Of a stretch of DNA of 35,997 nucleotides, positions 312 to 34,879 are shown piece after piece. Source of the DNA: a virus; UHGV virus genome UHGV-0350163; one strand, given 5' to 3'. How positions within the stretch are numbered: position 1 is the first letter of the stretch; each line of letters starts with the position of its first letter. The position numbers were made by a program, and so were the translations under genes. A model generated the notes under the pieces. It had not been told where the DNA came from. It saw only the letters and a list, made by a program, of their open reading frames with translations, and did no database searches.

Positions 312-2690
312 TCACTGGCCAGACAGCGATGCCAGCATGAAATAATGCAGCTCATCATTCCTTACAGACATTATTTCACCAGCCTCCCTGACCAGCTTGC
401 GCTCTCCGGTATCGTATTCTTCCATTGTAAGGAGTCCGTCAGAACCAAGCTCCATACGAGTCCCGTAAACCACTTCATATTCCGCCGGATATTCATCACG
501 ACACAAAATACCGTAATCAAAAGCGTCCAGCCCTTCCTCAGAGAAGACCTTCTGTACGTCCTGAGCAATCACTCCTACATGCCATCTGGCTGCGTTCCCT
601 TTGCTGGACACTGCATCCCTGAAACGGAACCGACAGATATACCCGAGCAGCTTTCTGGCAACCCTTTTTTCTGCATCCGACAGAATTGTTTCGTCCTGTT
701 TATGAGTCCGGTCTGATGTACTGATACTTCCCGTAGCTGAATAAACCTGTGCGGGTCGCCATGAGGCATAACCGATCGAATACGTATTATCTGTATAAGG
801 GCGGAGATTTCCTGATGAATCTATGCGCCATCTCTTTTCTCCTCCTGTGGCATTTGCATCCTGATTCGTTGCAAAATCAATCACTGTCGCTGACCTGAAC
901 ACAGATGAACCACCGCCAATTACCAGCGTGTTATTCCCCTCTGATGCCTGTTGGTCAACTACCAGTATTTTATCCTGATTTTTACCCGAACCACTTTTCG
1001 AGGCAGCGATAATACGATTAAACTGATCCTCACCATCGCTCTTTTGTGCGATGGTGATAACATTGGACCAGATTGCCTCTCTTTGTCGCTGAAAACCATA
1101 TTCTCCGCTGTCTGTAGTGACAGCTTTATATTTTATTCCACCTTCAGCTGACTCCTGCGTTATATAGAATGTCTGGTTATTAGCATTCTTGATGAACACA
1201 TAATTGTCAGCAGGAATGTCATTTCCACTCAGATCTTTAATCGGTGTCGTGGTTGTATGCAGACAAAACCATTTCTGACTCACAGAACGCATATATGCCA
1301 GAATTTCAGACAGGGATGTGAATACCGTCCCCAACACCGGGTTTACCAACCCCTGGGCACTACGGGGAAATGTTCCAATACTGGCATGAGACACATCAAA
1401 CCCCGTGTACAACCAGGCTGCCTGACGAAAATCAATAGCATCTCTGCCAGTACTGAACTCTTTCATCAGAACAATTCCTTTCTGATAAGCCTGTGGTAAC
1501 CCACGCTCCAGAAAGATATAAAGCGAATATATACTGCCGCCGTCGTCAGAAATACAAATTCCTTCGTTCTCAATGCGCGAAGGTGTAAAACCCTGCCTGG
1601 TAAGCACATCTATCATTTTTTGGGGATGAAGAATGGATTCCTGCTGCTTTACTCCATCCGGAGAAAAGACCTTAACCCCCTGAAACTGGTTAAATCCGGC
1701 TGATGCCCCGGTATTAAAATAGCCACCATAAGAACAGGCAATATAATCGTCTCCCACAGCAATTCCCTGACGTTTTGTGAAGCGTCTTGCATAGCTGTCT
1801 GTGCTTTCCGTGATATATCCGGAATCATGCAACGGTAATGTGAATGTCCCTGTCCGACGAAACTGAAAATCATACACCGCAAATACTGTGCGGGTGATCA
1901 GGCCTCCCACTTCCGGCGCTGACTGTTCAACCACCCAGCGGTTTTTACGATAGCTGAACTGGTTGTAAACACCGACATCATGTTCATCAATTAACGGCAA
2001 TACTGAACCAGAAATTGCCCCATCAAGCGAAAACTGTTTCAGTAATCCATTTTCTCCTGACATGAACAAACGTAATCCACCGTAATCCGTTGTCACCACA
2101 AGGCCTTCGCTGACAACGCCACGACCTCCATTATCGACATAATAATATCCCTCATATTCGCCGGATGTTGTGTACTGAACTATAACGTTCCGTGTCTGCT
2201 TTGGCTCAACGGTATAACTCAGATAGATTTTTTCTCCTGTCACCACAAATCCCTGTGGATACATATATTCCGCACCAGACTGAGCAGCCAGCACCGTATC
2301 GTAGTCCGGGAATAATAACGGCAATTCCATTAAGACACTACGGGAATGGTTAGTGTACAGATTGTTCAATGAACCAGCTTTTACATCCTGTAACCCCAGA
2401 TTTTCAAGAGCGCGTTCTACCGTGCCATCCGATTTGATATCGCCAAACGGATTATTGCGGCTTAACAGCAGCGCACGAAGCGCGGTAAGTAGCTGATCCG
2501 TTTTTTGGAGGGCAGGTTGAATATGTACACTACCAAGAACATTAAGGAGTTCCTGCTGTAAATCACGGATTGCCCCCTGCTGATTGTTTAAATAATCAGC
2601 AGTTACGATGGTTCCTTCTATCCCCTGAGTGGGGTCACCATCATGAAACAATTGATCCGGTGTATTTATCGGGGGCATCAGATTTTGCAT
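312..2690 (-). CDS. Tail fiber / tailspike (792 aa) with C-terminal intramolecular chaperone (peptidase S74-like) domain
   Basis: Last gene of the tail module after the baseplate genes. C-terminal ~130 aa contains SDRTHK...[10 protein letters not shown]...[16 protein letters not shown], which resembles the autoproteolytic chaperone domain of endosialidase-type tailspikes (from memory). Coding sequence is visibly more AT-rich than neighbouring structural genes. Confidence 0.8.
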
Positions 2691-3262
2691 TACTGCTCCT
2701 CCTTATATGTGAAATGGCAATAAGTAAAAGCGGGTTTAAGCTCTTTAAATGTTTCTTCCAGTACAGGGGCACCAAAGGAAAGTAACGGTTCCCCGGCAGC
2801 AGATACTCCGGTTCTGAATCTGTAAGCTGGCGTTTTGCTTCCTGTGACATTAACCTGCCAAATCCATCGGGCATCTGTTATATAGAGACGATCACCACAT
2901 CGGTTTACCCCCGTTCTAAATGGATGGAGTTCAGTAATTGTTATGGTGTACCCGAGGCTGGCTGCAAGTTGTTTAAAATAAGGGATAGATAACCCACCAG
3001 TTGCAGCCATCTTTATAAGAATATTTTCTCGGCGTTCCTGCTGCGTGGCACCATCGCGGGGTATTAATTCATACACTCGTTCCCAGTCAGACAGTGTCAT
3101 GGATGCGTAAAATGGTGTGACAGATGCAAGCACTCGTGCAGCTGACGCTTTTACTTCATCCATAATGGCTGCTTCTGCGTTCAGTTCTGTTGAAATATAT
3201 TTCCCGTTCGGGTCATAGCTGACCGGTGGTAACATGGCACGAAATAAATCAACCGTATTCAT
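2690..3262 (-). CDS. Tail/baseplate protein, Mu gp48-like (DUF2313-like)
   Basis: 190 aa ORF between baseplate J-like gene and tail fiber; position and size match Mu gp48. Confidence 0.6.
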
Positions 3263-20128: not shown

Positions 20129-21826
20129 TTACCATCCTCCTGAACCAAAACGCCCGCCACGGTCACGCCCGCTGCTGCGTGGGGTGTGTATCTGAAATTT
20201 TGCGCTGCGCGATACCGCCAGCGTCCACAGCATGTGCAGACAGTCCGGGCCATCATCGTGGTCGGCTTTGGGGTAGTGGCGCAGCTGGTCAATCAGCGTC
20301 TGATGTGCCGGACTGATGCGGATCAGGCCATTGGCCATATGCGGCTGAAGGGACTCAATACGCAGCGCTTTATCCTCCAGCGGGATGACCGGCAGCGCCG
20401 GAACCGGCACGCCCAGCGCCGCCGAACGCTCAACCAGCACGGTACGCAGAAACTCCTGAAACTGGACGGACTCAAACGACCAGCACAGACAGTGGTATTC
20501 CCGCTGATACTTAATCACGTCTTCGATAAGTTTGTTTGGCAGACGTCGGCGGATATCGGCTTCAACCACATCCAGAATGCCGGTAAAGCGGTTAAAGCCC
20601 CCCACGAGAATGGCCGACGGGTCGCGGTTTTTGTTTTTCTTCCCGAGACTGGGGTCAACAGCACCATAAAACACCCATTCATCAAGACGGTTAACCCAGA
20701 ACTTAATGCAGCCCGCAAACAGCGCATCTTCACCGCTGACCGGGTCGTTCTGGTATTCAGAATCAAAGGTGTCATGACCGTCACGGACACGGATTTTCAT
20801 CAGCGCCAGCAGGGGACGCGCCGCCCATGACACCACCGACCCGGCGAGCATCTCAGCCTCGTTCTGTCGGTAAAGTGCCTCCGCTGCTTCCGGCTGTTTG
20901 TTGCGGATGAGTTCTTCCCACTCGTCCCACAGCTTCATATTGGCAGGCCACTGAATAACGGCCTTAAAGCGGGCTGTTTTCCACATCGGGTTATTCAGCG
21001 TGCGCGACAGCACGGAGTCGTAATGCAGGATGGTTCCGATATAAATAATATCGGTTTTACCGCCAGCCTCACCCAGCGGCATCACGGTTTTGGTGAGCCA
21101 GTCATGCAGCTTGTCGCGCTGCTCCGGGTTACGCACCATCTCGTCGTTCTCGATATCGTCGAGGATGACCAAGTCAGGACGGTACGGACCGTGGCGCAGA
21201 CCACGCAGTTTTTTACCACTACCGGCAACGGTCACCTTGATATTGTTGGCCGTGACGATGGTCCCCATACGCCAGACGCGACCCTGCCCGCACACCTCCG
21301 GGAAATCGTTTTTTAAACGGGGGTTAAACTCCAGTTCAGCCTTGATGGCTTCCAGCATCGGATAAGCCTGGTCGATACTGTCCATAATGATGACCGGGTA
21401 ATGCTTAATGGCCCGGATAATGGTCCACAGGGTAAACAGCTGAGTCACCAGCGTGGATTTTGCTTCACCACGGGGCGCGGCGATGGCGTCGTTCTCCGGG
21501 TCCGGGCTTGCCACAACCTGTGGCAGACGGCTGAACAGGTATTTATGCAGCTCGCTTTTTGCCGGGTTGCGGACGTAGTGCGGGAAATAATTTTCGACAA
21601 AATAATCATAGCCCGTCACCGGATCGCAGACTGCCGCCCGGCGGGCCTGTGTGGCCTGTGGGTTAACATCGAACCCCAGACATTCAGCCTCAATGGTCTG
21701 GCGGAGGTTGGCGATGTACTCCTGCAGGCTTCTCTGAAACTCTTTAATGGAAAGTTTACGTTTTGCCACGTCACACCTGCGCTGCTTCTGCCTGCGCTTT
21801 TTCGAGACGTGCGCAGGCGATATCAA
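20129..21826 (-). CDS. Terminase large subunit (Mu gp28-like)
   Basis: 565 aa ORF as in the track. Real start may be the GTG at 21769, 1 nt after the methyltransferase stop and preceded by AGGTG. Confidence 0.8.
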   Translation of the reverse strand: MISPAHVSKKRRQKQRRCDVAKRKLSIKEFQRSLQEYIANLRQTIEAECLGFDVNPQATQARRAAVCDPVTGYDYFVENYFPHYVRNPAKSELHKYLFSRLPQVVASPDPENDAIAAPRGEAKSTLVTQLFTLWTIIRAIKHYPVIIMDSIDQAYPMLEAIKAELEFNPRLKNDFPEVCGQGRVWRMGTIVTANNIKVTVAGSGKKLRGLRHGPYRPDLVILDDIENDEMVRNPEQRDKLHDWLTKTVMPLGEAGGKTDIIYIGTILHYDSVLSRTLNNPMWKTARFKAVIQWPANMKLWDEWEELIRNKQPEAAEALYRQNEAEMLAGSVVSWAARPLLALMKIRVRDGHDTFDSEYQNDPVSGEDALFAGCIKFWVNRLDEWVFYGAVDPSLGKKNKNRDPSAILVGGFNRFTGILDVVEADIRRRLPNKLIEDVIKYQREYHCLCWSFESVQFQEFLRTVLVERSAALGVPVPALPVIPLEDKALRIESLQPHMANGLIRISPAHQTLIDQLRHYPKADHDDGPDCLHMLWTLAVSRSAKFQIHTPRSSGRDRGGRFGSGGW

Positions 21827-22511
21827 AATACTGGTTAGTCATTTCAATGCCGGTAAACCGTCCGCCACGGGCAAGCACAGGGATGGCGGTGGTGCCGCTT
21901 CCCATAAACGGATCGAGGACGTGCGCATCCGGTGCCAGCGGTTTAACCAGCTCGGCCATCAGCTGAACCGGCTTTGCGGTCATGTGCAGTTTTTCAGACG
22001 GGACAACACGCTGCGTAATCACACCCGGGAACGGGCCACCGTGCGGGCATTTGTCGAGTTTTCCGTTGCTGCCCCAGACCACATACTCTGCCTGATGCCG
22101 GAAATAGCCGGTGTGTGGCGCACGGGAAGCAAGCGTTTTATCCCAGACAACCAGACCACGCCACAGCACACCACCGGCCTGAAATGCATCGGTAAGCGCT
22201 GGTAGTTGTCGCCAGTCACTGAACACCATGAAATAACCGCCGGGATTCAGCCTGTGCAATGCATGAGAAATCCACATGGAACACCAGAACGCCCAGCTGC
22301 GCTGGTCGCGGTTATCGCCGGTGAACTCGGCATACTGGGTGTGACCGACATACTTGTCCGAAGGGGCCATGCTGCGGTCTGATTTGTGTGTGCCGCCACT
22401 GCTGTAAGGCGGGTCGGTAATGACGGCATCAAAACGTTCAGATAACGCTGACAGCACATCAAGAACATCACCGCAATACAACGTTGCGTTACCAATAATC
22501 TGTTTTTGCAT
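21771..22511 (-). CDS. DNA methyltransferase, beta-class N6-adenine/N4-cytosine type (orphan)
   Basis: 246 aa; DPPY catalytic motif near the N-terminus (ITDPPYSSGG) and SAM-binding motif near the C-terminus (LDPFMGSGTT); this IV-before-I order defines the beta class. No adjacent restriction endonuclease. Confidence 0.85.
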   Translation of the reverse strand: MQKQIIGNATLYCGDVLDVLSALSERFDAVITDPPYSSGGTHKSDRSMAPSDKYVGHTQYAEFTGDNRDQRSWAFWCSMWISHALHRLNPGGYFMVFSDWRQLPALTDAFQAGGVLWRGLVVWDKTLASRAPHTGYFRHQAEYVVWGSNGKLDKCPHGGPFPGVITQRVVPSEKLHMTAKPVQLMAELVKPLAPDAHVLDPFMGSGTTAIPVLARGGRFTGIEMTNQYFDIACARLEKAQAEAAQV

Positions 22512-23285: not shown

Positions 23286-23468
23286 TCAGTTCTGCGAACA
23301 CTGCCGGATGCCATCAACAATCCGGCAGACCTGCGCCGCCGCGTCAAACAGCTGGCCCGCCCTGTTAATGTCTGTGCATCCCGCCGGAAGCAACATCACC
23401 AGAAACAGGGCCAGAACACAGCGCGCGGCTTTACGTGGCGTTCTGTGGGTCCAGTGCTGACGCGTCAT
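23286..23468 (-). CDS. Small lipoprotein, candidate outer-membrane spanin
   Basis: 60 aa with signal peptide and lipobox (LLPAGC); start overlaps endolysin stop. Confidence 0.45.
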   Translation of the reverse strand: MTRQHWTHRTPRKAARCVLALFLVMLLPAGCTDINRAGQLFDAAAQVCRIVDGIRQCSQN

Positions 23469-24010
23469 ACCGTCACGCGCTCCTTCAGCCAGCCATAAAC
23501 AAACGATTCGTTAGCCTCGCGTTTCTCTGCCAGCTCCAGATAGCGGTCACCCTGCGTGCAGTTCAGGGCTGTCAGCATTACCCGTTCACCGTCCTGACCG
23601 CGATTATTCAGGAATGCGCGCAATGCACTGATGGTACGAGGCCCGATGCGTCCGTCTGCATCCATATCCGGGTACAGCTTCCCGCGCAGGTTGAAAACGT
23701 TCAGCCAGCGTTGGAGCATTTTTGACGCCACGGTTGGCCCCATATTCACACCGGTATCACACAGCTCTGCGGCAATATCAGGGGATAATGCGGCGACCTG
23801 GTCAAATCGCGGGCCATACCAGTAATCGGCTTCAAGGATGTCCAGCGCCTGCTCGCGGGTTAAATCGCGCATATCACCACGGTATCCGTGGGCACGGGCG
23901 ACTTTTTCCGTAATGCCCCATTTGGTCGGACCGCCCTTATCATCCGGGTGATTGACATAACCACCTTCTTTGCCCAGGACTTCATCAAAAATTTTATCTT
24001 TTGATTTCAT
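23465..24010 (-). CDS. Endolysin (GH108-like lysozyme with peptidoglycan-binding domain)
   Basis: 181 aa; N-terminal LGKEGGYVNHPDDKGGPTKWGIT matches the GH108 catalytic EGGY motif (from memory). Confidence 0.75.
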   Translation of the reverse strand: MKSKDKIFDEVLGKEGGYVNHPDDKGGPTKWGITEKVARAHGYRGDMRDLTREQALDILEADYWYGPRFDQVAALSPDIAAELCDTGVNMGPTVASKMLQRWLNVFNLRGKLYPDMDADGRIGPRTISALRAFLNNRGQDGERVMLTALNCTQGDRYLELAEKREANESFVYGWLKERVTV

Positions 24011-25174: not shown

Positions 25175-25642
25175 TTAATCAAAAAGCCCCACCTGGGTGG
25201 GGCTTTTCAGCGAAGTCTGTTTTTGTCGTCGGTGTATCAGCTGCCATGCGTACCGGTCTGAAATCCCGTAACGGGGACAGAGTAGTGCCAGCGCCTGCCG
25301 GTGTGAGCATCCGTCTTTTACATGCTGCTGTAAATCTGCCATAAAACGGGTGTTACGCAGGGCACGTAACGCATGATCGCAACGGGGAATGTAAAACGGC
25401 GCACCGCCAAGAAAGCGGATCAGTTTGTTGATTTCGTCTTCGGTCAGCACATCATGTAACAGGGCATGGACACCGCCGGTGCGTTCGGCGTGTGCGCCGG
25501 TTTTACCGCTTAACGTCACGCCACCAAAAGAACGGATTAACCGGGTCAGGGCGGGGAAGCCAATCACGCCAATCAGTTGCTGCACGGAATCGGGCAGCAG
25601 TGCCTGCGCATCGCGAAGATCTGTTTCACTGAAGGTCTGCAT
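25175..25642 (-). CDS. Mor/C-family transcriptional activator
   Basis: 155 aa; contains GGAPFYIP motif and C-terminal HTH-like segment (YGISDRYAWQLI) resembling Mu Mor/C (from memory). Only one such homologue seen. Confidence 0.75.
   Translation of the reverse strand: MQTFSETDLRDAQALLPDSVQQLIGVIGFPALTRLIRSFGGVTLSGKTGAHAERTGGVHALLHDVLTEDEINKLIRFLGGAPFYIPRCDHALRALRNTRFMADLQQHVKDGCSHRQALALLCPRYGISDRYAWQLIHRRQKQTSLKSPTQVGLFD
25181..25207 (-). terminator. A-tract / GC-rich hairpin / T-tract overlapping the 3' end of the Mor/C-like gene
   Basis: AAAAAGCCCCACC-TG-GGTGGGGCTTTT read from sequence; the minus-strand transcript would end within a few nt of the stop codon. Confidence 0.5.
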
Positions 25643-25700
25643 GATGGCGTCTCCGGTAGTAACTTACTGTTATTATAGCCATACATGATCGCCTGTACAG
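25643..25700 (-). promoter_or_regulatory. Candidate promoter for the Mor/C-like gene (perfect -10 TATAAT at 25673-25678 on minus strand)
   Basis: TATAAT about 30 nt upstream of the ATG, GGAG RBS 9 nt upstream of ATG; lies immediately downstream of the terminator at 25701-25730. No convincing -35. Confidence 0.35.
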
Positions 25701-25730
25701 ACCACAAAAAAGCCCCTACATGGCAGGGGC
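25701..25730 (-). terminator. Intrinsic terminator after the AT-rich moron (stem GCCCCT/AGGGGC, 7-nt loop, then TTTTTTGTGG on minus strand)
   Basis: Read directly from sequence. Confidence 0.65.
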
Positions 25731-25740
25731 GGCTATTAAG

Positions 25741-26244
25741 TTACTCTGGAATCTTGATGTTACAGGCTTTGATAAATTTATTAACAGCGGTTGTTGAACC
25801 TGTCGGTGTTACATTAAACGATGCGCCTCGTTCTTCACTCGGTTCTTTTACACCAGCTAAAACACGTTTTTGGGCTTTTCGAAGATAAGATAACAACTCT
25901 TTGATTTTTTGTTCGTCCTCTATTTTATAAATATACATTTTTTCATTTCGTGCAGCGAGTACCCCTGTGGTCTTTACTGCTGGAAATTCGTCTATCCTAA
26001 ATATTAAATCTTTTGATGAACCGAATAACGCAATGTTAACTTTATCTGTTTCTTTTGTAATACCAGCGAATAGTGAGTCATTCGAACAGTCTAAAGCAAT
26101 CCCAAAATCCATTGTTCCAATACCCACCATCATGGCTGTTTGTTGATCATCAAAAGCATCTTTTTGTACCCATGTGTGCCATTCAGCAACGGCAGGAAAA
26201 GACAAAATGAACGCTACTAAAAGAAAATACCGTTTTTTAATCAT
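25741..26244 (-). CDS. Secreted protein of unknown function (AT-rich moron)
   Basis: 167 aa with N-terminal signal peptide (MIKKRYFLLVAFILSFPAVA); strong SD AAGGAGGAG; ATG overlaps gemA stop (ATGA); coding sequence is markedly AT-rich. Confidence 0.7.
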   Translation of the reverse strand: MIKKRYFLLVAFILSFPAVAEWHTWVQKDAFDDQQTAMMVGIGTMDFGIALDCSNDSLFAGITKETDKVNIALFGSSKDLIFRIDEFPAVKTTGVLAARNEKMYIYKIEDEQKIKELLSYLRKAQKRVLAGVKEPSEERGASFNVTPTGSTTAVNKFIKACNIKIPE

Positions 26245-26639
26245 TTACTCCTCCTTCTTGAATCTTTAACCAGCGCCACCATCACCCCGAAAAGCTGTTC
26301 ATCCGTCAGCCATTCGATCACATGTTGCTTATACATGTGAGATGCCAGTCCTTCCGCATACCCCCAGGAACGACCGGCATCAGCCAGCAACGCTTCAATT
26401 TTGGATAATACCGATTTTCTGCTCATTGCAACACGGGGGCGGCGACCTTTACCGGCGGGTGCCTTGCGCGGGAATCCCTGTTCGTGCATGTATTCCCGGA
26501 TGATGCGCAGTTCATTAAGATTGCAGCGTGTGGTGCTGGTTTTACCGGTCAGGCGGGCCAGCGTCTGGCGATAAAGGGCATCATCCCACCCCAGATACGC
26601 CTGACCGGCTTTAATGGCCCCGATCATCTTTTTCAGCAT
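26241..26639 (-). CDS. gemA: GemA-like protein (Mu gp16-like)
   Basis: ORF track gives 26241..26738; start placed at internal MLKKMIGAIKAG; position upstream of the activator as in Mu. Confidence 0.6.
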   Translation of the reverse strand: MLKKMIGAIKAGQAYLGWDDALYRQTLARLTGKTSTTRCNLNELRIIREYMHEQGFPRKAPAGKGRRPRVAMSRKSVLSKIEALLADAGRSWGYAEGLASHMYKQHVIEWLTDEQLFGVMVALVKDSRRRSK

Positions 26640-26925
26640 GTTTGTTATCCTCAAAACGTACGGTAAAACGTGAAACGCCAATCCCTGACAAGAACGCGGC
26701 GGCACGATCAAGAGACAGCCACGTCTTGTAATCGCCACGGCGTTCCTGTAGAAAATAGGACACCCCAGCGCGGCGATTCACAGCGAAGAGGTGATACACA
26801 CCACCGAACCGCTGCACGACGAACTCATCCACGCCACCGCTTTCAGCCTGTTGCCTGAAAGCTGCCATTCCGATTTGTTCAATCTTCATAATGACCAAAA
26901 CACTACTTTTGGCAGACCAAAACAC
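26611..26925 (-). CDS. Hypothetical protein (start uncertain)
   Basis: ORF with GTG start at 26925 or ATG at 26889; 3' end overlaps gemA start. Confidence 0.3.
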   Translation of the reverse strand: MFWSAKSSVLVIMKIEQIGMAAFRQQAESGGVDEFVVQRFGGVYHLFAVNRRAGVSYFLQERRGDYKTWLSLDRAAAFLSGIGVSRFTVRFEDNKHAEKDDRGH

Positions 26926-26938
26926 ATGTTTTGGTCTG
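26913..26938. promoter_or_regulatory. Perfect 12-bp inverted repeat CAGACCAAAACA-CA-TGTTTTGGTCTG with a third half-site GACCAAAACA at 26893-26902; candidate operator
   Basis: Read directly; sits in the intergenic gap upstream of the gemA/moron unit. Confidence 0.45.
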
Positions 26939-26956
26939 CGTTTGATTACTGTTCAA

Positions 26957-27183: not shown

Positions 27184-27594
27184 TCAGTATGTGAAATAGA
27201 CAGTTGCCACGCCGTTATAGTGATCAAACGACACGGCGTTTACCTCATAACTGGCCGGGAGCTTCGAACCAAGAACGTATCCGGGCCACGTTTTCCATGG
27301 AATTTCTCTGCTCTCACTGTCGCCATATACCGTACATCCCAGTGAGCCTACAGCTTCATAAGAACGCTTACCGCACGTTATGAACCCCAGATTTAGCTTA
27401 CTGCCCTTAACAGAAATCGGGAGAGCACTGGCTGATGCGTTAGCAGCGTCCTGCTCCTGTTGGCTTGCGATATTCGCAGAGTTCGCAGCAGCTGCGGCAG
27501 CCGTAGTCGCAGCGGCAGATGCCACAATAACTGCTGAAGCCTGTGCCTGTTGGGTAACGGTCAGCAATGCCGCCACAAAAACCATTTTCTTCAC
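27184..27594 (-). CDS. Secreted protein with Ala-rich low-complexity linker
   Basis: 136 aa, GTG start preceded by AGGAGGT; signal peptide MKKMVFVAALLTVTQQAQA, then Ala/Ser/Thr-rich segment and a ~75 aa C-terminal domain. Confidence 0.6.
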   Translation of the reverse strand: MKKMVFVAALLTVTQQAQASAVIVASAAATTAAAAAANSANIASQQEQDAANASASALPISVKGSKLNLGFITCGKRSYEAVGSLGCTVYGDSESREIPWKTWPGYVLGSKLPASYEVNAVSFDHYNGVATVYFTY

Positions 27595-32418: not shown

Positions 32419-34461
32419 TTAACGGTTGTTTGTGCCGTTTTTCTTTAAATTGCGCTCGCGTTCAGATGCGAATAAATAAAGTTCTTCTTTTTCCTTTTTC
32501 TCCGGGCGCTCCAGTCCATATCCCAGATTAAAGTCTGGCTTCTGCGTAATAGCCGGGGTAAGCTCGCGTTTAGCCTCTTCGATTTTCTGCGTGGCCCGTG
32601 CAATGCGGCCCCTGACGCGTTTCTCCAGTTTTTGTTCGATAACTGGTTTAGCGAAGGCATCAACCTTGTTACCGTTCCAGATGGCATCGCAGATATAAGA
32701 GCCATCAGCCCGCCGGACAATGACGCTGTTTGCATCATGAATATCGTAACTGACCCTGACTTCATTCCCGTGCTCTGCGGCCAGATCATATGAGTAATAA
32801 ATATTGTTGAATAACTGAATTTCCCCGCGAAATGTTTTGCGCGTCACTTCCGGTCTGAACATTTCATGCAGTTCTTCCGGCGACAGGAAATCAATTTCAA
32901 CATTCTGCTCTTTTATCAGTTTCCGGCGATACGCTGCCGGGCTGTAATATTCGCCATCCTCTTTGCGGGGAAGGCTGCTGTGTGGCCGGTTGTTATAGCG
33001 TCTGACCTCCAGCTCTATGGCCGCCATCAGTTGCTCAAAGGTGGGGATTTCATCCCTCGCCTTAACCTGCCGTTTTGTCAGTTCTTTCCCTTTGTGGGTG
33101 GCCTTAATGGCCGACTGCATAATCCGTTGCTGCATCATTACGGTTTCCTTGTCTGCATCCTTTGCGCAGTACGTCTGGAAACTCAGTGCCACGTCTTTGG
33201 GTATTCCTTTGTTTGCCCGTTCTATTACCCCGCGCCCCTGCGGGTTACCCGGTATCCCCGTGTGATGCTCCACACCCAGCCGGGGCAGAATCCCGGTAAT
33301 ATCGGCATCAAGCACCCGGTTTTTTTCGCCGCCCCCGTTATCGGAATAATAAATCAGCGGTATCCCGTGCTGTGCCATGCCGTAACGCAACGCATCAGCA
33401 ACGGCTATCACGTTTTCCGACAGGGACAGTGACCAGCCCACAACAAAGCGCTGCCCCGCATCCATAACCAGCGTCACTTCTGGCCGGAAAATATTGCCGG
33501 TCAGGGGGTTAAACGCGGTCATTTTCATACAGTGACCATCCCCGACCCATACCGCATTAACCGGTAATGATGTCCACTCGCGCCGCACAAAGGGATTGAG
33601 CGAACGCCAGGCTGAACCTGTGGAGCGGAAACGCTCCTTAACAATCACCGGGACGCTGCTTAACACTCGTCTTACTGCGTGAACTGAAGGCAGTGCCGCC
33701 AGCATTCCCGCATCATTCGCGTGTTTCTCATGCCACCAGGCTGAAAACTCGCGATAAGCGTATTCAACGGTCGGGCGCTTCCATGAGCGATAGAACATAA
33801 AGAAATCGCTCAGCCACCAGACCTGCTCCCACGGAGTTCCCTTATGATGACCGGGAGCCAGTAACGCCAGTAACTGATTGGCATCACCGCGCGCCATCAC
33901 CCAGCTGGAGTACCAGCTATCCAGGCTGCCGGTGCTGACACCGGTTCGCTTTCCCTGACGTGCATTTGCAGTATTCGCTGCTTCGATAATGCGGTCAGGT
34001 AACGCCCCCATGCGCACACCATCAACGATGTGCTTTAACGCGGCCTTCCTGGTCATTCCGGCGTATTCACGCAGTTTATGCACTTCAGTAGCCAGCAATA
34101 TCCGCGCATCAGCAATGGCCTTTTGCTTGTCGGTCAGTGCCTGGACTTCGCGTAATGCCAGTTCCGGGCATTTGACCATCACTTCCAGTTCATCGCGAAC
34201 GGCGACGTTTTTAACTGCCTTCTGCTCAACCACGGCGGGCAGTTGTGCATCTTCCAGGACCTGATGAGTCAGGCGCTTACGTAAAACTTTCTGCGCTTCA
34301 GCGGGCAGGCTGTCGATGTGATACTCGAATGCTTTTGTGCCTTCACGCTTGCGCTTCCATTCCGGGTGCGTCTCTGTGATCCGATTGAGCGTCCATCGCA
34401 CCCCCTGAACTGTACCGGGCAAACGAGGAAGACCGGCCAGCTCATTGGCTGAATAAAACAT
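32419..34461 (-). CDS. A: DDE transposase A (MuA-like)
   Basis: 680 aa; N-terminus (ANELAGLPRLPGTVQGVRW...IDSLPAEAQ) and the central DDE core (WVGDGH...DNGGG) resemble MuA (from memory); ATG overlaps ner stop (TAATG). Confidence 0.9.
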   Translation of the reverse strand: MFYSANELAGLPRLPGTVQGVRWTLNRITETHPEWKRKREGTKAFEYHIDSLPAEAQKVLRKRLTHQVLEDAQLPAVVEQKAVKNVAVRDELEVMVKCPELALREVQALTDKQKAIADARILLATEVHKLREYAGMTRKAALKHIVDGVRMGALPDRIIEAANTANARQGKRTGVSTGSLDSWYSSWVMARGDANQLLALLAPGHHKGTPWEQVWWLSDFFMFYRSWKRPTVEYAYREFSAWWHEKHANDAGMLAALPSVHAVRRVLSSVPVIVKERFRSTGSAWRSLNPFVRREWTSLPVNAVWVGDGHCMKMTAFNPLTGNIFRPEVTLVMDAGQRFVVGWSLSLSENVIAVADALRYGMAQHGIPLIYYSDNGGGEKNRVLDADITGILPRLGVEHHTGIPGNPQGRGVIERANKGIPKDVALSFQTYCAKDADKETVMMQQRIMQSAIKATHKGKELTKRQVKARDEIPTFEQLMAAIELEVRRYNNRPHSSLPRKEDGEYYSPAAYRRKLIKEQNVEIDFLSPEELHEMFRPEVTRKTFRGEIQLFNNIYYSYDLAAEHGNEVRVSYDIHDANSVIVRRADGSYICDAIWNGNKVDAFAKPVIEQKLEKRVRGRIARATQKIEEAKRELTPAITQKPDFNLGYGLERPEKKEKEELYLFASERERNLKKNGTNNR

Positions 34462-34697
34462 TACGCCGCCTTACTGGCATACCGGCTTGGCCAGATCTCC
34501 GCAGGTTCCACACCAATAGCATCGGCTATGATGCGTTCATATTTAGGGCATGAGCGATACAGTGCATTTTTTAAAGAGTCTTTTTTTAGACCAGCGCGTT
34601 CAGAAAGTTCACGCAATGTAAAACCTTTGGTGTGCACAGCGGCAACGATGTACTCGCGGTGCCAGTCTTTGTTCATTACTTCATTTCTAACCATCAT
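34461..34697 (-). CDS. ner: Ner-like DNA-binding regulator
   Basis: Track ORF trimmed to MMVRNEVMNKDWHR...; shares the DWHR...NAL.R..PK.E.IIA.A....P..IWPSRY pattern with Mu Ner (from memory). Confidence 0.75.
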   Translation of the reverse strand: MMVRNEVMNKDWHREYIVAAVHTKGFTLRELSERAGLKKDSLKNALYRSCPKYERIIADAIGVEPAEIWPSRYASKAA

Positions 34698-34714
34698 TAG
34701 GTTACCCTTAAAAA

Positions 34715-34757
34715 TTATCCGTGCGGATAACACCGCCGTGTTATCCCTTCGGATACA
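34715..34757. promoter_or_regulatory. Two palindromic operator-like sites (TTATCCG-TG-CGGATAA at 34715-34730; TTATCC-CTTC-GGATAC at 34741-34757) in the divergent repressor/ner control region
   Basis: Read directly; the region 34698-34879 separates divergent ner (minus) and repressor (plus) genes, where Mu has its operators. Confidence 0.45.
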
Positions 34758-34879
34758 AGTATTGATCCATATGTAGCCCATGTAAAGCAAAAATAACCCT
34801 TTCTTTGTATTTTCTTTTTGATTTTGGTCTTTATGTGGTTTTTGCAATTAAAATCAACTAGTTATAGAGGAAAGAAAAA

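What the first reader, a model, noticed from the sequence alone, without database searches (positions are those of the whole stretch)
25701..26244. AT-rich moron encoding a secreted protein between gemA and the Mor/C activator
The 167-aa ORF has a clear signal peptide, a very strong SD (AAGGAGGAG), a start overlapping the gemA stop, strikingly AT-rich composition and its own intrinsic terminator (25701-25730). This is the signature of a horizontally acquired cargo gene expressed from the prophage; periplasmic localisation suggests superinfection exclusion, envelope modification or a host-fitness factor.
Basis: partly seen in the sequence, partly recalled or inferred. Interest (0 to 1): 0.65.

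Follow-up and report, generated by a model that had tools for sequence, protein, structure and literature searches.

The report
Swappable secreted-protein cargo in Mu-like prophage
A small AT-rich gene for an exported protein of unknown function sits in a swap-prone slot of a Mu-like prophage; it is a fairly ordinary phage accessory gene, but its protein family is uncharacterised and occurs only at accessory positions of temperate phages.

Summary
A 167-aa ORF lies at 25741..26244 (-), its ATG overlaps the gemA stop (ATGA), and AAGGAGGAG lies upstream. It has a Sec-type signal peptide (KKR, hydrophobic core, AVA|EW). It has the lowest GC in the window: 36.3%, GC3 27%, against 54±4% for the other genes.

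The gene is cargo. In 58 complete E. coli genomes carrying this prophage (flanks 95-98% identical), the gemA-mor slot is empty in 19. It holds an unrelated secreted protein in 23, another unrelated secreted protein in 11, and a 34%-identical homologue in 5. Phage Mu itself has nothing there.

The terminator is not the gene's own, because it is unchanged in empty-slot prophages. No cassette-borne promoter was found. The gene is therefore the last, translationally coupled cistron of the gemA operon, not a classical self-contained moron.

Homologues occupy other accessory positions: just downstream of a CI-type repressor, a bor-like position in lambdoid prophages, and beside a tape-measure gene. 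The function is unknown. An envelope-level role that benefits the lysogen, possibly superinfection exclusion, is my best guess.

The parts
26241..26639 (-). gemA (132 aa from the ATG at 26639). Its last ~5-10 codons, from about 26270 down, belong to the variable region and carry the cargo gene's SD.
   Evidence: PF06252 GemA, E 7.9e-18. Alignment A3 shows the gemA 3' tail differs between slot states.
25731..26270 (-). Variable cassette relative to empty-slot prophages (~540 bp). It comprises the remodelled gemA tail, the SD, the cargo ORF and an 10-nt spacer up to the terminator stem.
   Evidence: blastn junctions. Alignment A3 shows all slot states rejoin exactly at the first base of the hairpin; the left junction is fuzzy, at about 26255-26270.
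26248..26256 (-). Shine-Dalgarno AAGGAGGAG, embedded in the last codons of gemA.
   Evidence: Sequence. The same AAGAAGGAG module is shared with the unrelated UMNF18-type cassette.
26185..26244 (-). Signal-peptide coding part (codons 1-20, MIKKRYFLLVAFILSFPAVA). Predicted signal peptidase I cleavage after A20.
   Evidence: n/h/c-region features and family-wide AxA conservation. The first ~47 nt are shared with an unrelated cassette.
25744..26184 (-). Mature protein: 147 aa, about 16.4 kDa, pI about 6. PHROG 19473. Conserved residues W22, D29, F31, C53, D85, N100, G131, C161.
25706..25730 (-). Intrinsic terminator (8-bp stem, CAT loop, T6). It belongs to the prophage backbone and is not cassette-borne.
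   Evidence: Scan. Invariant in empty-slot L003 and in the unrelated cassettes L001 and L002. The class-4 cassette L062 carries a different hairpin at the same place.
25672..25699 (-). Sigma70-like promoter candidate TGTACA-16-TATAAT upstream of the Mor/C-family gene. Backbone.
   Evidence: 10 of 12 match. Invariant in all seven aligned loci.
25175..25642 (-). Mor/C-family late activator (155 aa), the downstream flank of the slot.
   Evidence: PF08765, E 1.1e-6. phrog_836 'late transcriptional activator', E 1.5e-42.

Best explanation
The ORF is an accessory (moron-like) cassette. It was recombined into a hot spot between the 3' end of gemA and the backbone terminator that precedes the Mor/C activator gene, in a family of Escherichia Mu-like prophages.

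It has no transcription signals of its own. It is the last cistron of the gemA-containing operon and is translated by coupling to gemA, through the ATGA overlap and a strong SD lying inside gemA's last codons. This is the position that mor occupies in phage Mu.

The product is exported through Sec and cleaved after AVA. It folds in the periplasm into a roughly 16-kDa beta-rich domain, probably locked by one disulfide (C53-C161). The fold resembles IalB and the N-terminal domain of MotY.

The family (PHROG 19473) moves between unrelated temperate phages and always sits at accessory positions. I therefore infer, without proof, that it acts at the cell envelope for the benefit of the lysogen or infected cell. 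The most likely role is interference with entry of other phages (superinfection exclusion). Modifying an envelope structure is less likely.

Shown: gene reality, cargo status, composition, export signals, operon embedding, fold. Inferred: timing of expression, periplasmic localisation, disulfide, function.
For: Cargo status:
- Slot census in 58 complete E. coli genomes with flanks 95-98% identical: 19 empty, 23 UMNF18-type, 11 class-4, 5 M8-type homologue, 0 with this allele.
- In Mu, gemA overlaps mor directly.
- dS between cargo alleles is 1.0-1.1, against 0.04-0.16 in the flanks, with omega 0.10-0.35. This indicates old alleles swapped in by recombination and kept under purifying selection.
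- GC is 0.363 against 0.542. The gene is lower in GC than its surroundings in all 14 loci examined.

Operon embedding:
- The ATGA overlap and SD are in the sequence.
- No sigma70-like site was found upstream.
- The terminator is invariant in the empty slot.

Export:
- Signal-peptide features and two conserved Cys.

Family and fold:
-.

Accessory positions elsewhere:
- 14 nt downstream of a CI/S24-type repressor on the same strand (L059).
- On the opposite strand between the lysis region and cos/terminase in lambdoid prophages of E. coli, Kluyvera and Citrobacter.
- On the opposite strand next to a tape-measure gene in a Devosia prophage.
- Upstream of gemA in a distant Mu-like phage (L018).

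Lysogen expression is conceivable:
- The Mu record annotates a semi-early promoter in front of gemA.
Against: - There is no experimental or homology-based link to any known exclusion or defence protein. PADLOC gave no hit. Pfam, NCBIfam and PDB sequence searches gave no hits.
- The IalB and MotY-N similarity is at fold level only (16% and 8% identity). The molecular function of IalB is itself unknown.
- In this prophage the gene sits in an operon expected to be repressed in lysogens. A lytic-cycle role is therefore equally compatible with the local anatomy.
- Known entry-blocking proteins are mostly membrane proteins or lipoproteins, whereas this one looks soluble.
- One distant member may be chromosomal, on a short contig with aroA and cmk.
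- No family member was found in 50,697 sequenced phage isolates, so nothing can be borrowed from a studied phage.
Confidence: 0.5

Rival explanations
1. It is a lysogenic-conversion factor for host fitness or virulence, not an anti-phage function. A periplasmic IalB-like protein would alter envelope properties such as adhesion, invasion, stress or serum resistance, as Bor, Lom or prophage SodC do.
Against: The similarity to IalB is fold-level only, with no PF06776 hit. The family also occurs in environmental alphaproteobacterial phages (Devosia and metagenomes), where an animal-host virulence role is unlikely. The molecular function of IalB is unknown.
Confidence: 0.2
2. It is a lytic-cycle helper made only after induction or infection, as the last gene of the early operon. 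It would act in the periplasm of the infected cell, for example blocking secondary infection during replication, protecting the envelope until programmed lysis, or masking the receptor so that progeny are not lost on debris.
For: The gene has no promoter of its own, is translationally coupled to gemA and lies upstream of the early-operon terminator. All four alternative cassettes at this slot encode small signal-peptide proteins, which fits a slot whose expression timing suits envelope-acting proteins.
Against: In other phages the homologue is arranged for lysogen-type expression: co-oriented with and 14 nt after a CI-type repressor, or on the opposite strand to the late genes. It is dispensable, since 19 of 58 prophages have an empty slot.
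Confidence: 0.2
3. The gene is ancestral to this prophage lineage and was lost or replaced in relatives. Its low GC would reflect the family's own composition, not recent import.
For: A homologue lies next to gemA in a distant Mu-like phage (L018; A 41% and B 49% identical). Four divergent alleles (98, 84, 56 and 55% identity) plus the 34% M8 type all sit in the same slot.
Against: In L018 the gene is upstream of gemA, and that phage's gemA-mor junction is empty. Mu has no such gene. dS in the cargo is about 10 times that of the flanks. The same family is found in lambdoid and other unrelated phages. Two unrelated cassettes use the same junctions.
Confidence: 0.08
4. It is a spurious ORF or a decayed remnant with no function.
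For: There is no annotation in any curated library.
Against: Omega is 0.10-0.35. There are 114 full-length representatives with conserved motifs. The AF2 model has pLDDT 93.4. The gene has a strong SD and start coupling.
Confidence: 0.01

Closest known systems
Morons of lambdoid phages (HK97 gene 15, lambda bor/lom), as defined in Cumby, Davidson & Maxwell 2012 (PMC3594210)
   Same: It is extra DNA between two genes that are adjacent in close relatives. Its GC differs from its neighbours. It is a single small gene whose product goes to the envelope. Family members in lambdoid prophages sit in the bor-like position on the opposite strand.
   Different: In this prophage the gene has neither its own promoter nor its own terminator. 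It is embedded as the last, translationally coupled cistron of the gemA operon. Expression from the repressed prophage has not been shown.
Accessory ORFs in 'regions of genomic plasticity' of Pseudomonas Mu-like phages (PMC4378225)
   Same: Small variable ORFs sit at fixed positions in the left (early) arm of transposable phages, vary between near-identical genomes, and are mostly of unknown function.
   Different: The host genus and sequence families differ. Here every alternative occupant of the slot is a signal-peptide protein, and two unrelated cassettes share the SD and signal-peptide 5' arm.
Phage Mu gem operon (gemA-mor/gemB)
   Same: GemA is followed by a gene whose ATG overlaps the gemA stop by 4 nt, then by a terminator and promoter (window).
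   Different: In Mu the coupled gene is the transcription factor Mor. Here it is an unrelated exported protein, and the only Mor/C-family gene lies after the terminator.
IalB (invasion-associated locus B, PDB 3dtd; Pfam PF06776) and the N-terminal domain of Vibrio MotY (PDB 2zf8, 8z5n)
   Different: No sequence or profile similarity was found, and identity is only 16% and 8%. The conserved mature N-terminal motif W-x-T-x-V-E-D-D-x-F and the Cys pair were found in this family's own alignment (A4); they were not looked for in IalB or MotY. The phage context also differs.
PHROG 19473 (unknown function)
   Same: Full-length match at E 1.4e-85. All 80 aligned relatives match it.
   Different: None; this is the family. 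It carries no functional annotation.

Membership tests
Moron (classical definition: Juhala/Hendrix; PMC3594210) | Inserted between two genes that are adjacent in related phages | tested here: met
   In 19 of 58 related E. coli prophages gemA is followed directly by the terminator and mor (span 977 bp against 1465 bp). In Mu, gemA abuts mor.
Moron (classical definition: Juhala/Hendrix; PMC3594210) | Nucleotide composition differs from the surrounding genes | tested here: met
   GC 0.363 and GC3 0.274, against 0.542±0.042 and 0.590±0.088. This is the lowest in the window. The CAI-like index has z = -2.5.
Moron (classical definition: Juhala/Hendrix; PMC3594210) | Own promoter | tested here: not met
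   The consensus scan found no sigma70-like site upstream on the coding strand. The relaxed scan found only a 9/12 site inside gemA backbone sequence at 26431..26405. The start codon overlaps the gemA stop. This is a consensus scan only, so weak or non-sigma70 promoters are not excluded.
Moron (classical definition: Juhala/Hendrix; PMC3594210) | Own terminator | tested here: not met
   A hairpin with a T-run is present, but it is identical in empty-slot and unrelated-cassette prophages, so it belongs to the backbone.
Moron (classical definition: Juhala/Hendrix; PMC3594210) | Expressed from the repressed prophage | not testable with these tools
   This needs RNA-seq or a reporter in lysogens. 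The only support is the analogy to Mu gem expression.
Sec/signal-peptidase-I exported soluble periplasmic protein | Positively charged n-region, hydrophobic h-region, small residues at -3 and -1, no lipobox | tested here: met
   The signal peptide reads MIKKR-YFLLVAFILSFP-AVA|EW. Family-wide, Ala is at -1 in 70 of 79 and Ala/V/S/T at -3 in 69 of 79. The n-region has net positive charge in 74 of 79. There is no Cys in the signal peptide. SignalP was not available.
Sec/signal-peptidase-I exported soluble periplasmic protein | No further membrane-spanning segment; globular mature domain | tested here: met
   The AF2 model is a beta-rich globular domain with two amphipathic helices, with pLDDT above 94 from residue 21 on. 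Localisation itself was not tested.
PHROG 19473 | Full-length significant match to the family HMM | tested here: met
   E 1.4e-85, residues 1-165 against profile positions 5-167 of 167.
IalB family (Pfam PF06776) | Significant match to the Pfam model | tested here: not met
   The ORF had no Pfam hit at E <= 0.1. None of the 80 relatives hit PF06776 at E <= 0.01.
IalB family (Pfam PF06776) | Same fold as the solved member 3dtd | tested here: inconclusive
Known anti-phage defence / superinfection-exclusion protein families | Match to a model of a known defence component | tested here: not met
   In PADLOC the only hit was UzuA at E 0.023 over 39 residues, which is not significant. No PHROG with an exclusion annotation was hit.
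Known anti-phage defence / superinfection-exclusion protein families | Reduces infection by other phages when expressed | not testable with these tools
   This needs plating and adsorption/injection assays.

The most novel reading that the evidence does not exclude
The gemA-terminator junction of this prophage lineage is a dedicated exchange site for periplasmic-protein cassettes. The shared SD and signal-peptide coding stretch serves as the 5' homology arm, and the terminator hairpin as the 3' arm, so mature domains are shuffled behind a constant export signal. PHROG 19473 would then be a new, widespread family of phage-borne soluble periplasmic proteins (IalB/MotY-N-like fold) that block an envelope step of infection by competing phages.
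Probability: 0.2. Interest if true: 0.6.

Novelty: new member of a known kind. Interest (0 to 1): 0.4.

Why it matters
If the inferred role is right, PHROG 19473 would add a soluble periplasmic class to the known prophage-encoded envelope factors. It would also give a first functional handle on the IalB/MotY-N-like fold, whose molecular function is still unknown.

The slot itself is a compact natural experiment. It has five states (empty, three unrelated secreted proteins, and divergent alleles of one of them) in otherwise 95-98% identical prophages, so isogenic comparisons for exclusion or fitness phenotypes are straightforward.

The finding also gives a concrete example of an accessory gene that meets the compositional and positional criteria of a moron but borrows all its expression signals from the host operon. 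Annotation pipelines that look for promoter-gene-terminator units would miss this type.

Tried and rejected
- Sequence annotation found nothing usable. Pfam, NCBIfam, PADLOC and PDB sequence searches, with the single protein and with the 80-member profile, all came back empty.
- tblastn of the ORF, the lambdoid homologue and a central family member against 50,697 phage records gave no match.
- The word-indexed protein search found only 4, then 11 clusters. The exhaustive HMMER search was needed to see the family.
- The first AF2 run, with 5 sequences, was poor (pLDDT 66) and was not used.
- Foldseek against the PDB gave no significant hit; the best was MotY at E 0.03. BFVD hits were uncharacterised proteins with TM 0.4-0.57. 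The afdb50 library was unavailable.
- Scans of GTDB representative genomes with family alignments either failed for lack of a conserved stretch or found no relative.
- A weak NCBIfam hit of the UMNF18-type cassette to 'C-type lysozyme inhibitor' (E 0.12) covers only the signal peptide, so I rejected it.
- I considered diversifying selection as the cause of allele divergence and rejected it. dS is saturated while omega is 0.1-0.35.
- I considered a lipoprotein and rejected it, because there is no Cys near the cleavage site.
- Rfam and tRNA scans of the window were negative.
- A literature search for the accessions and the PHROG id found no paper.

Full report
**What is in the sequence**

On the minus strand, an ATG at 26244 opens a 167-codon ORF that ends at 25741. 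The ATG overlaps the TGA of the upstream gene (ATGA). That gene is gemA (PF06252, E 7.9e-18). AAGGAGGAG lies at 26256..26248, inside the last gemA codons. The downstream gene (25175..25642) is a Mor/C-family activator (PF08765; phrog_836 'late transcriptional activator').

The window as a whole is a Mu-like prophage read on its minus strand. It encodes:
- a Mu-type transposase, a MuB-like AAA protein, a CI-type repressor and a Ner-like HTH protein;
- DUF3164 and DUF2786 proteins;
- a Mu portal and a Gp48-like protein.

**Composition**

The ORF has GC 0.363 and GC3 0.274. The other 37 genes average 0.542 (sd 0.042) and 0.590 (sd 0.088). No 504-nt stretch outside the ORF is as AT-rich. A codon-adaptation index referenced to the other genes is the lowest of all 38 (z = -2.5).

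**Signal peptide**

The N-terminus reads MIKKR / YFLLVAFILSFP / AVA|EW, which is a textbook n-h-c layout. There is no cysteine, so it is not a lipoprotein signal. In an 80-member family alignment the site is conserved:
- Ala is at -1 in 70 of 79 members.
- Ala is at -3 in 55 of 79.
- The n-region has net positive charge in 74 of 79.
- The mature part has exactly two cysteines in 78 of 80.

I could not run SignalP. Export is inferred from these features, and localisation has not been shown.

**The terminator is real but belongs to the backbone**

The hairpin GCCCCTGCCATGTAGGGGC plus T6 (25730..25706) is present. I aligned this region with related prophages. The following are identical in every locus:
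- the hairpin and T-run;
- a TGTACA-16-TATAAT promoter-like site (25699..25672);
- the mor ribosome-binding site and start.

That includes a locus where the slot is empty (STEC316, L003) and loci with unrelated inserts (UMNF18 L001, M8 L002). All variants rejoin the backbone exactly at the first base of the stem. Only the fourth cassette type (L062) carries a different hairpin at the same place.

On the upstream side, variation begins within the last 5-10 codons of gemA. No promoter-like site lies upstream of the ORF in the standard scan. A relaxed scan finds only a 9/12 site inside gemA backbone sequence.

The gene is therefore the terminal, translationally coupled cistron of the gemA operon. 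In phage Mu, gemA and mor overlap by 4 nt and are followed by a terminator and the middle promoter. The cargo ORF sits in the position that mor holds in Mu.

**It is cargo in a hot spot**

Fifty-eight complete E. coli genomes carry this prophage type with flanks 95-98% identical. None has this allele. Measured from the gemA start to the mor end, the spans fall into four classes:

| Genomes | Span (bp) | Slot content |
|---|---|---|
| 19 | 977 | empty |
| 23 | 1437-1440 | unrelated 158-aa protein (UMNF18 and E2348/69 type) |
| 11 | 1298-1299 | unrelated 112-aa protein, weak Sel1-like match |
| 5 | 1548 | 174-aa protein, 34% identical to the window ORF (M8 type, E 1e-27) |

All four occupants begin with a signal peptide and are AT-rich (GC 0.36-0.43).

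The UMNF18-type cassette has an unrelated mature domain. Even so, it shares the SD and the first ~47 nt of the signal-peptide coding region with the window family. This suggests that this stretch and the terminator act as the homology arms for exchange.

Closer alleles of the window gene sit in the same slot:
- 98% identical, in Escherichia marmotae and other assemblies;
- 84% identical;
- 56% and 55% identical, in E. coli.

Between alleles, dS is about 1.0-1.1 in the cargo but 0.04-0.16 in gemA and mor. Omega is 0.10-0.35. So these are old, functional alleles moved by recombination. They are not fast-evolving copies.

**The protein family**

The ORF matches only PHROG 19473, of unknown function (E 1.4e-85). 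Pfam, NCBIfam, PADLOC and PDB sequence searches were empty, both for the ORF and for 80 relatives.

An exhaustive HMMER search found 114 representatives at 50% identity. Nearly all are 160-175 aa and full length. The conserved features are:
- W22, two residues after the cleavage site;
- the motif W-x-T-x-V-E-D-D-x-F;
- C53, D85, R/N99-100, G131 and C161.

With this alignment AlphaFold2 gives a confident model (pLDDT 93.4, pTM 0.86). It has about nine beta strands and two helices.

Both neighbours are periplasmic. The molecular function of IalB is unknown. This is a fold-level resemblance, and family membership is not established.

**Where else the family lives**

- IMG/VR holds 39 loci. One is the same slot. 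One is a distant Mu-like phage in which the gene lies just upstream of gemA while gemA-mor is contiguous (L018).
- About 35 are 43-47 kb lambdoid prophages. In an annotated E. coli example the 167-aa homologue lies between the lysis region and the terminase/cos end. It is on the strand opposite to every neighbouring phage gene and has a promoter-like site upstream. This is the arrangement of lambda bor. The same allele is 99-100% identical in Kluyvera and Citrobacter.
- A metagenomic phage has the gene 14 nt downstream of a CI/S24-type repressor on the same strand.
- A Devosia prophage has it on the opposite strand beside the tape-measure gene.
- One short contig suggests a chromosomal copy.
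- The gene is lower in GC than its surroundings in all 14 loci checked.
- No member was found in 50,697 sequenced phage isolates.

**Mechanism**

Shown: the gene is a real, selected, exchangeable accessory gene. It carries export signals, is embedded at the end of the gemA operon, and has an IalB/MotY-N-like fold.

Inferred: Sec export, a periplasmic disulfide-bonded domain, and action at the envelope.

The family recurs at positions typical of lysogen-expressed genes: after a repressor, in the bor position, and on the opposite strand in a tail operon. That makes a lysogen-benefiting role most likely. I favour interference with infection by other phages (about 0.3-0.35). Next come a host-fitness or virulence role (about 0.2) and an early lytic helper role (about 0.2).

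Whether the gene is expressed in lysogens of this prophage is open. The only support is by analogy. [quoted passage not shown] The Mu record also annotates a semi-early promoter before gemA.

**Comparison with known systems, and verdict**

The gene meets the positional and compositional criteria of a moron (PMC3594210) but fails the own-promoter and own-terminator criteria. It resembles the accessory ORFs in regions of genomic plasticity of Pseudomonas Mu-like phages (PMC4378225).

It is a new member of a known kind, namely phage accessory cargo, and it belongs to an uncharacterised protein family. Interest is moderate. Nothing here would surprise a phage biologist. The five-state slot of secreted proteins and the well-modelled orphan family do make a clean experimental target.

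Noticed in passing
window 27184..27594 (-): A 136-aa ORF (phrog_8805, unknown function) also starts with a signal-peptide-like N-terminus (MKKMVFVAALLTVTQQAQA|SA), followed by an Ala-rich low-complexity stretch. It is present in some related prophages (L001, L004, L015) and absent in others (L002, L003). It looks like a second variable secreted-protein gene in the early region.
   Followed up: partly
window 25672..25730 (-) and 25175..25642 (-): The only Mor/C-family gene lies downstream of a strong terminator and a 10/12 sigma70-like promoter (TGTACA-16-TATAAT). Both are invariant in all relatives. In Mu, mor precedes the terminator and the following promoter needs Mor. How a near-consensus promoter in front of the late activator is kept silent in lysogens is unexplained.
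   Followed up: partly
L001 2657..3133, L062 693..1031, L002 2706..3230 (E. coli prophages, same slot): The three alternative occupants of the gemA-mor slot (158, 112 and 174 aa) all carry signal peptides and are AT-rich (GC 0.38-0.43). The 158-aa type, found in EPEC E2348/69 and UMNF18, shares the SD and the first ~47 nt of the signal peptide with the window family but has an unrelated mature part.
   Followed up: partly
window 23465..24010 (-) and 21771..22511 (-): Close relatives swap the endolysin: GH108 plus PG_binding_3 here, against Peptidase_M15_4 in L003, L007 and L009. They also differ in presence of the N6/N4 DNA methylase gene. These are further mosaic points in the same prophage lineage.
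   Followed up: no
window 34461..34847 (-), 312..2690 (-), 2690..3262 (-): These are the other low-GC genes: the Ner-like HTH_35 gene (GC 0.42), the tail fibre with a Peptidase_S74 chaperone domain (0.46) and the Gp48-like gene (0.45). They are the next lowest on the codon-adaptation index after the cargo ORF.
   Followed up: no
window 26912..26939: A perfect 12-bp-stem palindrome, GCAGACCAAAAC-ACAT-GTTTTGGTCTGC, lies at the start of ORF 26611..26925, between two small early ORFs. It could be a protein-binding site or an RNA hairpin. No T-run follows on the coding (-) strand.
   Followed up: no
L056 6690..6830 (E. coli 2018-10-1CC lambdoid prophage): At least seven copies of GGGACAT/ATGTCCC lie between the small-terminase-side gene and the PHROG 19473 homologue. 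These are probably cos or terminase-binding repeats, which would place the homologue at the very end of the packaged genome.
   Followed up: no
window 26185..26244 versus L004 6001..6060: The window allele is 100% identical in nucleotides to the E. marmotae-type allele (P0001) over the mature domain. It differs in the first ~45 nt (MIKKRYFLLV against MMKKWLFCLV). This indicates a recombination junction inside the signal peptide even between near-identical alleles.
   Followed up: partly
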